Shown: positions 34,543-36,324, counted from the first letter of the stretch. The stretch: DNA of 64,000 nt from Candidatus Brennerbacteria bacterium RIFOXYC1_FULL_41_11 (GCA_001817215.1 MHHX01000019.1:16302-80301), one strand, 5' to 3'. The notes: generated by a model not told the origin, from the letters alone. Made by a program: numbers and translations.

Positions 34543-35171
34543 TTTGGGAAGTGCTTCCCCTGATTTTAATATTTTTAGGGTTTGGCAGCGCCCTGATTTT
34601 TTTGGTGAAAAAATCAGAGTCAATTTCTGATGAAGAAGTAAACAAGACCCTCGATAATATCAAGTTGGTTAAGCTGATAAAGATTTTTTATCATCAAAAA
34701 ATCAAGCCGAAACTTCAATCACGCGTGATTGAAGAAAAAACCCTTCTCTTTGTTGAGAAAGAGTTGCGTTGGTTAAGGATTTTAGCCTTGAAGCTGGAAA
34801 ATTGGCTGACTAAACAAATCGACGGCGTTAAAAACTTGCGGGTTAAACCGGAAGCAGATCCGTTATACTGGCTTTCGGTCAGGCGAGATGCTTTAGAGAA
34901 GAAAATCAACGAGGTATTTCAGTTCAGTTTTAATGCCAAATACGATCCTTTTAAAGAAGAAGAGAAGTTGGTAAAGAAGGGTATCGAAGATATTAATGAA
35001 TGGTTGAAAATCGTCAAGTTTCATCTTGAAAGAGACGATATTTCAGAGGCCCGCAGGCTGATTATCCGTTGCTGGAAGATTAATCCTGACGATGAAAAAC
35101 TCAAGCTTTTGCTTGAAAGGTTTCACCTGAGTCTTGAAGAAGACCAGTTGAAAGAGGAAAAACAGAGCTAG
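34539..35171 (+). CDS. Hypothetical N-terminally anchored protein, helical/TPR-like, translationally coupled to tsf
   Basis: N-terminal TM LPLILIFLGFGSALIFLV; 4-nt overlap with the tsf stop. Confidence 0.4.
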   Translation: MIWEVLPLILIFLGFGSALIFLVKKSESISDEEVNKTLDNIKLVKLIKIFYHQKIKPKLQSRVIEEKTLLFVEKELRWLRILALKLENWLTKQIDGVKNLRVKPEADPLYWLSVRRDALEKKINEVFQFSFNAKYDPFKEEEKLVKKGIEDINEWLKIVKFHLERDDISEARRLIIRCWKINPDDEKLKLLLERFHLSLEEDQLKEEKQS

Positions 35172-35211
35172 TTTGTTATAATTCAACTCGGCTTGATATA
35201 ATAAAATGCAT

Positions 35212-35295
35212 GCTGGGATGGTAGAGCGGTCAATTACAAGAGACTGTAAATCTCTCGCCCTTAGGGCTACGCAGGTTCGAATCCTGCTCCCAGCA
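35212..35295 (+). tRNA. tRNA-Tyr (anticodon GTA) with a long variable arm
   Basis: Acceptor GCTGGGA/TCCCAGC, anticodon stem AGAGA/TCTCT with loop CUGUAAA, variable-arm hairpin GCCC-TTA-GGGC, T arm GCAGG-TTCGAAT-CCTGC. Confidence 0.8.
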
Positions 35296-35338
35296 CTCTG
35301 ACTCGCAGGGGCCTTACTCGCTCGGTGCGAGTACTAGA

Positions 35339-35406
35339 GGCCCTATCGTCTAGCCCGGTCTAGTCATGCCAGCGGCAGATCCGCCTTTGGCGGAGACATC
35401 GCCCCT
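35339..35406 (+). other. Degenerate tRNA-Glu-like 5-prime fragment (pseudo-tRNA) fused to a GC-rich hairpin
   Basis: GGCCCTATCGTCTAGCCCGGTCTAG matches the first 25 nt of the downstream tRNA-Glu (GGCGCTATCGTCTAGCCCGGTCCAG) at 22/25, but no anticodon or T arm follows; instead CCGCC-TTT-GGCGG. Confidence 0.4.
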
Positions 35407-35446
35407 TTCACCTGTCAAAATTTTAATTAAAATTGAGTTATCTCAT

Positions 35447-35521
35447 GGCGCTATCGTCTAGCCCGGTCCAGGACGCTGCCCTCTCACGGCAGAAACACGA
35501 GTTCAAATCTCGTTAGCGCTA
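35447..35521 (+). tRNA. tRNA-Glu (anticodon CTC)
   Basis: Acceptor GGCGCTA/TAGCGCT, D arm GTC-TAGCCCGGTCCAG-GAC (E. coli tRNA-Glu-like), anticodon stem CTGCC/GGCAG with loop CUCUCAC, T arm ACGAG-TTCAAAT-CTCGT. Confidence 0.8.
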
Positions 35522-35605
35522 CATGGTTAAAAATTAGGTGGGCGAGCGGCGAATCCGCCAGCTGGCGCACAAGTCCCGTTAGGGCTACTTGACAAAGAAT
35601 CAGTA

Positions 35606-35940
35606 TTTGCTATAATATAAATACAATTTATATAAAACATCCCACGGAACCTTAGGCGAAGTGGGGAAGTGGAGTCACGATCCATGATGTTGCCTCGCAA
35701 AATCGGGGACGGAAGCTGAACCGTAATTAATCCAGCAAGCGGTGTCACTGTAGATTACAACTGGCGTTTACGCTGAGCGTAGTCGAAGCGCGGAGCCGAC
35801 CAAAGAGCCATGACTTTTAATGGAGTTATGGAATGAGGATGGGACCGCGGGAGGTCTCTTTTTTTATAGTCTCTCGTTCCTTGCTTACTACTTTTGTAGT
35901 AATTGAGGAACGAGAGGTTTTTTGATTCTTCGCGGAGTGA
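35606..35940 (+). ncRNA. Candidate structured non-coding RNA of unknown family: a promoter-like TATAAT followed about 320 nt later by two tandem intrinsic terminators
   Basis: TTGCTATAAT at about 35604-35614. No ORF of 60 aa or more on this strand. Terminator hairpin CCTCTCGTTCC...GGAACGAGAGG + TTTTTT at about 35868-35935. Internal repeats of GAGCGTAG and GTAGTCGAAG. Confidence 0.3.
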
Positions 35941-36105
35941 AGAATCAACCCTGAGCGTAGGTAGCCACGCTTGGCGTGGCGTAGTCGAAGGGTGTTTACC
36001 TTTCGTAGAAGGAGGCGTTGATGAGTAAAATACATCGCGCATTTGGAGGGTCTGGCCCTCACGGTTTTCGTCGGGAAAGATTTGATCAGTCTTTCCCGAT
36101 GTGAT

Positions 36106-36180
36106 GGTCTCTGTAGCTCAATAGTAGAGCGTTGCTCTGTGAAAGCAATGGCTGGGGGTGCAAATCCCCTCAGAGACCCA
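36106..36180 (+). tRNA. tRNA-His (anticodon GTG) with an encoded G-1
   Basis: G-1 before acceptor GTCTCTG/CAGAGAC, discriminator C, D arm GCTC/GAGC, anticodon stem TTGCT/AGCAA with loop CUGUGAA, T arm GGGGG-TGCAAAT-CCCCT. Confidence 0.8.
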
Positions 36181-36305
36181 AAATGCAAACTGCTTTGCAT
36201 TTTATGGGATTTGCAAGCCGGAGTGATATTTAACTTGCGTATGGCAAGTTAAATCACGAGGCGGGATCGCGGCAAAATTTTCGGAAGAAAATTTTAGCTG
36301 TGACC

Positions 36306-36324
36306 AAATCCCCTCAGAGACCCT
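36306..36324 (+). repeat. 19-nt perfect direct repeat of the tRNA-His 3-prime end (CAAATCCCCTCAGAGACCC)
   Basis: Identical to 36160-36178; the two copies sit 146 bp apart, like attL/attR cores. Confidence 0.7.

What the first reader, a model, noticed from the sequence alone, without database searches (positions are those of the whole stretch)
35296..35447. Degenerate copy of the tRNA-Glu 5-prime half, preceded by a nested hairpin, inside the Tyr-Glu tRNA cluster
Between tRNA-Tyr and tRNA-Glu lies a 22/25-nt copy of the tRNA-Glu acceptor and D arm (35339-35363). It is not followed by an anticodon or T arm but by GC-rich hairpins. Just upstream is a nested stem-loop (CAGGGGCC[TACTCGC-tcggt-GCGAGTA]CTAGAGGCCCT). 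Partial tRNA duplications mark past recombination or integration events, or an unusual tRNA-derived regulatory RNA.
Basis: seen in the sequence. Interest (0 to 1): 0.5.

Follow-up and report, generated by a model that had tools for sequence, protein, structure and literature searches.

The report
Relic halves of a displaced tRNA-Glu gene
The "half tRNA" is the front half of this bacterium's original tRNA-Glu gene, which was broken when a second, intact tRNA-Glu gene landed inside its anticodon loop; the back half lies just downstream, so this looks like a gene-replacement scar and not a working gene.

Summary
Positions 35339-35363 match the first 25 nt of the intact tRNA-Glu(CUC) gene (35447-35522) at 23/25, and the upstream nested hairpin exists. 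The piece is not a duplicate of that gene.

- **What it is.** It is the 5' part (X) of the older resident tRNA-Glu gene of this Parcubacteria (CPR) lineage. X starts exactly where the gene starts in relatives.
- **Match to the closest genome.** Outside a 31-nt GC-rich hairpin insertion in the D arm, X matches that genome's tRNA-Glu at 35/35.
- **What follows the insertion.** X continues into the anticodon-stem 5' strand and a Glu-like loop (CTTTCAC).
- **The missing 3' part.** Y lies after the intact gene, at 35540-35588: anticodon-stem 3' strand, a related hairpin insertion, T-stem 3' strand and acceptor 3' strand. The present gene is therefore nested in the old one.
- **Not a tRNA.** No scanner and no in-silico spliced construct gives a tRNA. 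The T arm is destroyed. A 99.65%-identical strain carries 2 of its 10 substitutions in X, one changing the would-be anticodon from TTC to GTC.
- **Recurrence.** The same nested layout arose separately in a 'Ca. Veblenbacteria' lineage whose relatives have a single uninterrupted gene.

Verdict: a gene-replacement relic, of moderate evolutionary interest. It remains unexplained why all the insertions are hairpins.

The parts
35212..35296 (+). tRNA-Tyr(GTA), class II. It is the first gene of the transcription unit; a promoter-like site lies at 35173-35202.
   Evidence: ARAGORN; Rfam; promoter scan
35297..35338 (+). Ancestral Tyr-to-Glu spacer. The inner hairpin TACTCGC-tcggt-GCGAGTA (35315-35333) is conserved, with a compensatory A:T to G:C change in L084. 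The outer-stem strand AGGGGCC (35307-35313) pairs with the relic's acceptor strand GGCCCT (35339-35344).
   Evidence: Alignment A2; fold; duplex -13.0 kcal/mol against -5.0 +/- 2.0 in shuffles, 0/2000
35339..35363 (+). X, piece 1: acceptor 5' strand GGCCCTA, positions 8-9, D-stem 5' strand and D loop of the old resident ('type A') tRNA-Glu gene.
   Evidence: 25/25 identical to L001 tRNA-Glu and 23/25 to the adjacent gene; begins at the native gene start
35364..35394 (+). 31-nt GC-rich hairpin insertion in the D arm (GCCAGCGG-CAGAT-CCGC..TGGC). Its core AGCGGCAGATCCGCC is repeated in Y.
   Evidence: Absent from L001 gene; fold; the repeat is found only twice in the window
35395..35411 (+). X, piece 2: D-stem 3' strand GAC, A26, anticodon-stem 5' strand TCGCC(+C), and loop CTTTCAC. 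This would be a UUC anticodon, and it reads GTC in strain L081.
   Evidence: GACATCGCCC is 10/10 to L001; T35407G in L081
35412..35446 (+). AT-rich 5' flank (leader) of the nested gene.
   Evidence: Sequence; no homologue in relatives' spacers; leader-trailer pairing is no better than in shuffles
35447..35522 (+). Intact nested tRNA-Glu(CUC), 'type B' (acceptor G4:C69, T stem ACGAG/CTCGT). It resembles the tRNA-Glu of L084.
   Evidence: ARAGORN; Rfam 60.1 bits; comparison
35523..35539 (+). 3' flank (trailer) of the nested gene. AGGT (35536-35539) can pair with ACCT (35410-35413).
35540..35545 (+). Y, piece 1: anticodon-stem 3' strand (G)GGCGA, complementary to TCGCC(C) in X.
   Evidence: GGCGA is 5/5 to L001; paired in the MFE structure
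35546..35574 (+). 29-nt GC-rich segment replacing the variable region, the T-stem 5' strand and part of the T loop. It contains AGCGGCGAATCCGCC, which overlaps from 35545 and is a direct repeat of the X insertion (about 20/27 identical).
   Evidence: by-eye alignment of sequence
35575..35588 (+). Y, piece 2: T-stem 3' strand CCCGT, acceptor 3' strand TAGGGCT, A73, C. TAGGGCT pairs with GGCCCTA of X (C4:G69, against G4:C69 in the nested gene).
   Evidence: 13/14 to L001; match found; it abuts the -35 box of the next promoter at 35589

Best explanation
X (35339-35411) and Y (35540-35588) are the two halves of the lineage's original tRNA-Glu(CUC) gene. That gene was inactivated when a roughly 128-bp segment (35412-35539), carrying a different but complete tRNA-Glu(CUC) gene with its own AT-rich flanks, became inserted at the 3' edge of the old anticodon loop. 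The old gene also carries a 31-nt hairpin insertion in its D arm and a related 29-nt segment that overwrote its T arm.

The relic no longer encodes a tRNA. It is carried along in the tRNA-Tyr/tRNA-Glu precursor transcript as leader and trailer of the new gene. It is presumably discarded when RNase P and the 3'-end processing enzymes release tRNA-Glu.

Shown:
- homology of X and Y to the orthologous gene, and their native position;
- the nesting of the intact gene within the old one;
- loss of tRNA features;
- fast change of X between strains;
- independent recurrence in a second CPR lineage.

Inferred:
- co-transcription and processing;
- the order of the insertion events;
- a foreign or paralogous origin for the new gene;
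- the idea that the local hairpins, including the upstream strand that pairs with the relic's acceptor strand, keep the relic from misfolding with the new tRNA.
For: 1. **Position.** The Tyr-to-X spacer aligns with the Tyr-to-Glu spacers of L001, L084, L095 and L096, and X starts at the column where their tRNA-Glu genes start.
2. **Sequence.** X pieces are 25/25 and 10/10 identical to L001's tRNA-Glu, against 23/25 and 7/10 to the adjacent gene. Y pieces are 5/5 and 13/14. The X and Y acceptor strands GGCCCTA/TAGGGCT pair with each other and carry C4:G69, where the nested gene has G4:C69.
3. **Derived state.** L001, the closest genome (EF-Ts 75% identical), has a 46-nt Tyr-Glu spacer, one uninterrupted gene, and no X or Y.
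4. **Not a tRNA.** ARAGORN and Rfam find nothing at X or Y. Constructs with the insertions removed in silico are not called as tRNA on the + strand, even in intron mode or at a relaxed threshold. The T-stem 5' strand and T54/T55 are missing.
5. **Relaxed constraint.** Strain contig L081 differs at 10 of 2873 positions. Two of these fall in the 73-nt X: T35361A in the D loop and T35407G at the would-be anticodon position 34. By my calculation 0.25 are expected, Poisson P about 0.03. None fall in the three intact tRNAs.
6. **Recurrence.** L101/L104/L106 ('Ca. Veblenbacteria') show promoter, X', intact tRNA-Glu(CTC), Y', terminator. Relatives L110, L113 and L111 have one uninterrupted gene at the same place, and in L110 and L113 it starts with the same GGTCCCA as X'.
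7. **Context.** tRNA fragments next to intact tRNA genes are common in the CPR loci fetched for other reasons.
Against: - The old gene's pieces are unusually intact for a pseudogene in a reduced genome. The damage consists almost entirely of insertions of GC-rich hairpins, not deletions.
- In L101, removing four insertions in silico restores a sequence that ARAGORN calls tRNA-Glu(CTC).
- X and Y are mutually complementary well beyond shuffled controls (-54 against -36.8 +/- 4.8 kcal/mol, 2/2000). The MFE fold of 35297-35590 pairs X with Y around a cloverleaf of the nested gene (z = -3.85).
- The evidence for relaxed constraint rests on only two substitutions.
- No mechanism, enzyme or donor for the insertion was identified.
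Confidence: 0.72

Rival explanations
1. Exapted leader and trailer. X and Y began as relics, but they are now kept because their RNA serves the nested tRNA-Glu. The X:Y duplex and the local hairpins would form a scaffold around it. That scaffold could stabilise the precursor, guide its processing, or stop the relic's near-identical 5' strand from mispairing with the new tRNA.
For: - X:Y complementarity and X-insertion:Y-insertion complementarity exceed shuffled controls (2/2000 and 11/2000).
- The MFE structure encloses a correct cloverleaf.
- The spacer strand 35307-35313 pairs with the relic's acceptor strand (0/2000). I saw no equivalent strand in relatives that have a working gene there (by inspection).
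- A second lineage keeps promoter, X', gene, Y' and terminator as one unit.
Against: - Much of the complementarity is inherited from the old tRNA stems, and from two similar palindromic insertions.
- Leader-trailer pairing in the window is no better than chance (1281/2000) and is only marginal in L101 (152/2000).
- L001 and other relatives express tRNA-Glu without any such flanks.
- X changes quickly between strains.
Confidence: 0.13
2. Footprint of a site-specific mobile element. An integrative element carrying its own tRNA-Glu integrated into the resident tRNA-Glu, and most of it was later deleted. The roughly 27-nt direct repeats (35369-35394 and 35543-35570) would be remnants of its attachment sites.
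For: - The direct repeat AGCGGC[AG][GA]ATCCGCC occurs only at these two places in 64 kb.
- The same locus has an att-like repeat of the tRNA-His 3' end (36300-36323), and L015 and L033 show att-like 3' repeats.
- tRNA fragments left by integrated elements are well documented (PMC9897764), and a 5' fragment plus a new tRNA copy flanking a recombinase element is known in Caldiarchaeum (PMC3293823).
Against: - Integrase-mediated integration produces a hybrid tRNA plus a 3' remnant. It does not produce a complete foreign gene between a 5' and a 3' half.
- Pieces of the old anticodon arm lie inside the repeat-bounded segment.
- No integrase or transposase lies within about 9 kb on either side.
- No viral contig carries either nested tRNA.
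- The insertions in L101 are unrelated to each other and to those here.
Confidence: 0.09
3. A working interrupted tRNA gene. X and Y would be exons of a bacterial multi-intron or split tRNA-Glu. The intervening hairpins, and the nested tRNA, would be removed by an unknown splicing or processing pathway.
For: - The 'exon' pieces are sharply bounded and nearly unchanged.
- The insertions sit at a loop or at helix junctions.
- An extra C in X is matched by an extra G in Y, extending the anticodon stem to 6 bp.
- In L101 the four-insertion-free construct is called tRNA-Glu(CTC).
- Patescibacteria are already known for unusual tRNA introns in the anticodon loop (PMC13011429).
Against: - In the window the T-stem 5' strand and T54/T55 are missing, so no cloverleaf can form.
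- The would-be anticodon differs between two 99.65%-identical strains: TTC (Glu) against GTC (Asp).
- By inspection there are no bulge-helix-bulge motifs at the junctions.
- There is no group I intron signal, and the segments are far too short for one.
- The reassembled L101 gene carries C6xA67 and U27xU43 mismatches and would duplicate the nested gene's anticodon.
Confidence: 0.05

Closest known systems
tRNA gene fragments (partial, non-canonical tRNA genes) left by integration of genetic elements in prokaryotes (van der Gulik et al. 2023, PMC9897764). The sublocation rules of integrases in tRNA genes are cited from my own knowledge of Williams 2002.
   Same: A partial tRNA sequence lies next to an intact gene of the same isotype, is not functional, and marks a past insertion.
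   Different: In the known cases the repeat is normally the 3' part of the tRNA, bounds a kilobase-scale element and comes with an integrase. Here both a 5' and a 3' half survive. They enclose only about 128 bp that is essentially one complete tRNA gene, and no integrase is nearby.
Caldiarchaeum subterraneum tRNA-Thr(GGU) locus: a 5' fragment of the old gene upstream of a new gene copy, separated by a 1.8-kb putative transposable element (Sugahara et al. 2012, PMC3293823)
   Same: A 5' fragment of one allele is left upstream of a different, intact allele of the same tRNA, which is interpreted as gene disruption and replacement by inserted DNA.
   Different: That case is archaeal. The insert is 1.8 kb and encodes a recombinase, and the new gene has BHB introns. 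In the present case the organism is bacterial, the insert is essentially only the tRNA, and the 3' half of the old gene is retained immediately downstream.
Archaeal and red-algal disrupted tRNA genes (multi-intron, split, permuted) processed through bulge-helix-bulge motifs (PMC4090602, PMC4390854, PMC3728597)
   Same: [quoted passage not shown] The L101 version can be reassembled in silico into a tRNA.
   Different: This is a bacterium. I saw no BHB motif and no splicing endonuclease is known. In the window the T arm cannot be reassembled, and the anticodon is polymorphic.
Group I introns in the anticodon loop of Patescibacteria tRNA genes (Nakagawa et al. 2026, PMC13011429)
   Same: Same phylum, and the tRNA gene is interrupted in the anticodon loop.
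   Different: The interruptions here are 29-128 nt, with no group I core and no Rfam Intron_gpI match. One of them is itself a tRNA gene.

Membership tests
Functional tRNA gene (including intron-containing) | Cloverleaf recognised by tRNA scanners or a covariance model | tested here: not met
   ARAGORN and Rfam find nothing at 35297-35446 or 35523-35588. Constructs c1-c3 with the insertions removed are not called as tRNA on the + strand, including with -i and -ps80.
Functional tRNA gene (including intron-containing) | Complete T arm with T54-Psi55-C56 | tested here: not met
   Y has only CACAAGT-CCCGT. There is no ACGGG partner strand and no TT.
Functional tRNA gene (including intron-containing) | Anticodon held constant within the species | tested here: not met
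   TTC in the window against GTC in L081, at 99.65% overall identity.
tRNA pseudogene / gene relic | Homology to a functional orthologue at the syntenic position | tested here: met
   Alignment A2; 25/25, 10/10, 5/5 and 13/14 identity to L001 tRNA-Glu.
tRNA pseudogene / gene relic | An intact gene of the same anticodon is present, so that loss is tolerable | tested here: met
   tRNA-Glu(CTC) at 35447-35522, 60.1 bits. The ancestral gene was also CTC in all relatives.
tRNA pseudogene / gene relic | Relaxed sequence constraint | tested here: inconclusive
   2 of 10 strain substitutions fall in the 73-nt X, which is suggestive (P about 0.03) but rests on few events. There was no variation among the 12 L101-type contigs.
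Integrase att-site duplication | Direct repeat of the tRNA 3' part bounding an element that has an integrase | tested here: not met
   The repeat here is of the 5' part. The enclosed DNA is about 128 bp, and all ORFs from 25.9 to 44.4 kb that have a Pfam match are housekeeping genes (three ORFs next to the cluster have no match).
Archaeal-type BHB intron / split tRNA | Bulge-helix-bulge (3-4-3) motif at each exon-intron junction | tested here: not met
   By inspection of the junctions, both unpaired stretches at the anticodon junction lie on the 5' strand. No staggered 3-nt bulges were seen. No dedicated BHB search tool was available.
Archaeal-type BHB intron / split tRNA | tRNA splicing endonuclease in the genome | not testable with these tools
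   Only 64 kb of the genome is available.
Group I intron in tRNA | Conserved catalytic core (P3-P8), typically more than 200 nt | tested here: not met
   No Intron_gpI match at E <= 10 in 35100-36300. The interruptions are 29-128 nt long.

The most novel reading that the evidence does not exclude
Some CPR bacteria may carry genuinely interrupted tRNA-Glu genes. The exon pieces would be separated by several short hairpin 'introns' and by a whole nested tRNA gene, and would be rejoined, or used as a two-piece RNA, by an undescribed bacterial pathway. The Veblenbacteria version (L101) still reassembles in silico into a tRNA-Glu(CUC). The window's copy would then be a decaying member of the same class.
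Probability: 0.05. Interest if true: 0.85.

Novelty: new variant of a known kind. Interest (0 to 1): 0.4.

Why it matters
tRNA gene fragments are usually read as scars of integrating elements. This locus shows a different route: a complete tRNA gene nested inside the anticodon loop of the gene it replaces, with both old halves left as its leader and trailer. The route has been taken at least twice, independently, in reduced CPR genomes. Three consequences follow.

- **Annotation.** Half-tRNAs next to tRNA genes in Patescibacteria should not be called genes or regulatory RNAs without synteny checks.
- **tRNA evolution.** The locus documents allele replacement rather than point-mutation drift in an essential tRNA.
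- **An open puzzle.** All the disruptions are GC-rich hairpin insertions, and the exon pieces stay so intact. If that reflects a process rather than chance, it concerns how insertions arise in CPR RNA genes.

Tried and rejected
- **Intron-containing or split functional tRNA.** ARAGORN, including intron mode and a relaxed threshold, was run on the native region and on three in-silico spliced constructs. None gave a + strand tRNA call in the window.
- **Known RNA family.** Rfam at E <= 10 reports no tRNA and no credible family match at X or Y; the only overlap is a sub-threshold chance match (RF00233, 14.2 bits, E = 4.6) running from the intact gene into 35523-35536. The same holds for the L101 and L099-type units.
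- **Group I intron.** No match, and the segments are too short.
- **BHB introns.** Junction geometry does not fit, by inspection.
- **Dispersed hairpin repeat or MITE.** The insertion sequences have no other copies in the 64-kb window or in the L101, L104 and L106 contigs beyond chance 11-mers.
- **Phage or viral donor of the nested genes.** No exact match in IMG/VR to the first 28 nt (5' end) of either nested gene.
- **Simple tandem duplication of the present gene.** Rejected for two reasons. X and Y are closer to the orthologue in L001 than to the adjacent gene, and the X-to-gene spacer does not repeat the sequence upstream of X.
- **Leader-trailer inverted repeat around the nested gene as a transposon end or processing stem.** Not significant in the window and marginal in L101.
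- **Strain variation in the second lineage.** Twelve contigs were identical across X'-B'-Y', so this was uninformative.
- **The 86%-identity relative of the window.** Its contigs end inside or just after tRNA-Tyr (L082, L083), so I could not see whether it carries X and Y.

Full report
**Observation.** The window is bacterial. It encodes ribosomal proteins S2 and L21, EF-Ts, DnaB and a class II tRNA-Tyr, and its GC content is 40.7%. ARAGORN and Rfam call tRNA-Tyr at 35212-35296, tRNA-Glu(CTC) at 35447-35522 and tRNA-His at 36107-36179. They call nothing in the 150-nt Tyr-Glu spacer. The reported copy is real: 35339-35365 matches the first 27 nt of tRNA-Glu at 23/27, and it is the only such match on either strand of the 64 kb. 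The upstream nested hairpin folds at -23.6 kcal/mol, z = -3.8.

**What the copy really contains.** Reading on from the copy, a 31-nt GC-rich hairpin (35364-35394) is followed by GAC-A-TCGCCC-CTTTCAC (35395-35411). That is a D-stem 3' strand, an anticodon-stem 5' strand and a 7-nt Glu-type loop. I call 35339-35411 'X'. Downstream of the intact tRNA-Glu lies 'Y' (35540-35588):
- GGGCGA, complementary to TCGCCC;
- a 29-nt GC-rich segment whose core AGCGGCGAATCCGCC repeats the AGCGGCAGATCCGCC of the X insertion (the only two occurrences in the window);
- CCCGT-TAGGGCT-A-C, a T-stem 3' strand and an acceptor 3' strand.

TAGGGCT pairs with X's GGCCCTA, with C4:G69 where the intact gene has G4:C69. 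X and Y are therefore two halves of one tRNA-like gene that enclose the intact gene.

**Comparative evidence.** The organism is a Parcubacteria-group (CPR) bacterium. The nearest genome found is GW2011_GWB1_45_10 (L001), with EF-Ts 75% identical. L001 has tRNA-Tyr, a 46-nt spacer, one uninterrupted tRNA-Glu(CTC), then the same downstream RNA element and tRNA-His. It has no X or Y.

- **Identity to L001.** X's pieces are 25/25 and 10/10 identical to L001's tRNA-Glu, against 23/25 and 7/10 to the adjacent gene. Y's pieces are 5/5 and 13/14.
- **Position.** An alignment of the Tyr-to-Glu spacers of L001, L084, L095 and L096 with the window's Tyr-to-X spacer shows they are homologous. X begins at exactly the column where the tRNA-Glu genes begin.
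- **The inner hairpin.** L084 has TGCTCGC-tcagt-GCGAGCA where the window has TACTCGC-tcggt-GCGAGTA, which is a compensatory change.
- **The intact gene.** The window's intact gene ('type B': G4:C69, T stem ACGAG/CTCGT) resembles the tRNA-Glu of L084 and not that of L001.

The simplest reading is that the resident 'type A' gene was split and a type B gene now sits inside it.

**Is X/Y functional?** As a tRNA, no.
- No scanner recognises it. Constructs with the insertions and the nested gene removed in silico are not called as tRNA on the + strand, even in intron mode or at a relaxed threshold.
- The T-stem 5' strand and T54/T55 are missing.
- An independent assembly of a 99.65%-identical strain (L081) has the same architecture, so this is not an assembly artefact. 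It differs at 10 positions in 2873 nt. Two are in X: T35361A, and T35407G at the would-be anticodon's first position, changing TTC (Glu) to GTC (Asp). By my calculation 0.25 substitutions are expected in X, Poisson P about 0.03. None fall in the three intact tRNAs.

**Recurrence.** A metagenome scan for two copies of TCGTCTAGCCCGGTC 80-110 nt apart gave 11 loci. Only two are true tandem tRNA-Glu genes.

- **A second nested case.** L101, L104 and L106 come from three samples and are identical. Their protein matches are named Parcubacteria or 'Ca. Veblenbacteria'. They show a promoter-like site (by eye) followed by these parts:
  - X' (GGTCCCA..GGAC, a 34-nt hairpin insertion, GTCTCCCTC);
  - an AT-rich spacer;
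  - an intact tRNA-Glu(CTC);
  - Y' (TCACGGAGT, a hairpin, AAACTGGGGTT, a 31-nt insertion, CAAATCCCCATAGGATTACCA);
  - a terminator-like hairpin with a T run (by eye).
- **Its relatives are uninterrupted.** L110, L113 and L111 have MurF 74-62% identical to that of L101. Each has one uninterrupted tRNA-Glu(CTC) in the same place. In L110 and L113 it follows a matching promoter-like sequence and starts with GGTCCCA, as X' does. The nested state is therefore derived there too, and it arose independently of the window's case.
- **In-silico reassembly.** Removing the four L101 insertions gives a sequence ARAGORN calls tRNA-Glu(CTC). It carries C6xA67 and U27xU43 mismatches relative to its relatives.
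- **No strain variation.** Twelve strain contigs showed no differences in this region.
- **Wider pattern.** Partial tRNA copies beside intact tRNA genes are frequent in the CPR loci I had fetched for unrelated reasons: L010, L015, L027, L033, L098, and the window's own tRNA-His.

**Mechanism.** The best-supported account is insertional gene replacement. A roughly 128-bp segment (35412-35539) holding a complete tRNA-Glu(CUC) gene entered the old anticodon loop, and the old halves remain as its leader and trailer. They are transcribed from the promoter-like site upstream of tRNA-Tyr (35173-35202) and are removed during normal tRNA end-processing. That last step is inferred.

The enzyme and the donor are unknown.
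- There is no integrase or transposase within about 9 kb on either side.
- No viral contig carries either nested gene.
- The insertions are not dispersed repeats.
- There is no group I intron signal.
- I saw no BHB geometry at the junctions.

**What remains unexplained.** The damage to the old gene in both lineages is almost wholly by insertion of GC-rich hairpins, and the coding pieces are sharply preserved.
- X and Y are more complementary than shuffled controls (-54 against -36.8 +/- 4.8 kcal/mol, 2/2000). So are the two insertions (11/2000).
- The spacer strand 35307-35313 pairs with the relic's acceptor strand (0/2000).
- The MFE fold pairs X with Y around a cloverleaf of the nested gene.

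Part of this complementarity is inherited from the old stems and from two similar palindromes. Leader-trailer pairing in the window is not above chance. I therefore give some weight (0.13) to an exapted role in precursor folding or processing, and little (0.05) to a true interrupted tRNA.

**Comparison with known systems.**
- **tRNA gene fragments left by integrating elements** (PMC9897764). This is the closest class.
- **The Caldiarchaeum tRNA-Thr locus** (PMC3293823). There a 5' fragment of one allele lies upstream of a new allele. That is the closest single analogue.
- **How this case differs from both.** Both halves are retained immediately around a bare tRNA gene, and there is no recombinase.
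- **Archaeal multi-intron tRNAs** (PMC4090602). The resemblance is superficial, and the defining features are not met here.
- **Group I tRNA introns of Patescibacteria** (PMC13011429). Again the resemblance is superficial and the defining features are not met.

**Verdict.** I rate it a new variant of a known kind (a tRNA gene relic), of moderate interest.

Noticed in passing
window 36300-36323: A second tRNA relic in the same cluster. The last 19 nt of tRNA-His (CAAATCCCCTCAGAGACCC) are repeated exactly about 120 nt downstream of the gene (21/24 over 24 nt). The intervening 120 nt is made up of small hairpins, giving an att-like direct repeat.
   Followed up: partly
window 35589-35925: A perfect sigma-70-type promoter (TTGACA-16-TATAAT, 35589-35616) drives a conserved structured RNA. 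That RNA has a weak T-box-leader match (35617-35884, 21.8 bits against a gathering score of 93), a T-box-like AGGAUGGGACCGCGGGA, and a terminator at 35841-35858. It lies upstream of tRNA-His. It is conserved in L001, and in L095 tRNA-His is followed by a HisRS gene.
   Followed up: partly
window 35770-35791 and 35950-35995: A repeated motif GAGCGTAG...CGTAGTCGAAG occurs on both sides of the T-box-like element. L001 has related copies (CCCGAGCGTAGTCGAAGGG). Its meaning is unknown.
   Followed up: no
L101 4192-4494 (also L104 and L106): A second, independent nested tRNA-Glu locus in 'Ca. Veblenbacteria'. The old gene is cut by four insertions, one of which is a complete tRNA-Glu(CTC). Removing the four in silico restores a sequence that ARAGORN calls tRNA-Glu(CTC).
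   Followed up: yes
L098 2472-2560: A truncated tRNA-Tyr (acceptor through variable arm, T arm lost) lies about 60 nt upstream of a different, intact tRNA-Tyr. This is the same kind of replacement relic, for another isotype.
   Followed up: partly
L010 2202-2225; L027 5747-5770 and about 5820: One or two tandem units lie upstream of tRNA-Thr(TGT) in two Patescibacteria genomes. Each unit is the first 24 nt or so of tRNA-Thr plus about 50 nt of AT-rich spacer. The partial copies share the same D-loop change (CAG to GTY), which suggests a conserved unit and not random decay.
   Followed up: no
L015 4365-4420; L033 5420-5458: att-like direct repeats of the tRNA-Thr 3' end. In L015 the repeat includes at least 55 nt of downstream sequence. 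In L033 it starts at the anticodon loop. The repeats lie 120-215 nt downstream of the intact genes.
   Followed up: no
L099 1690-1800 (minus strand); L103 2784-2895; L107 873-984; L105 24-263: In a different bacterial group, a conserved tRNA-Glu-like unit sits about 112 nt upstream of tRNA-Glu(UUC). Its 5' half is intact, its anticodon arm is replaced by an invariant TCCCGC-TTNNCAA-GCGGGA, and its T arm is degenerate. L105 has two tandem units. The first 65 nt or so are conserved across diverged members, so this one could be a functional tRNA-derived leader. It matches no Rfam family.
   Followed up: partly
L097 2891-3532: Two short GIY-YIG nuclease ORFs (92 and 95 aa) flank tRNA-Tyr in a relative of the window locus. 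tRNA-Glu there lies 323 nt further on. In L084, tRNA-Glu and its spacer, including the last 5 nt of tRNA-Tyr, have been moved 2 kb away. This tRNA cluster is a rearrangement hot spot.
   Followed up: no
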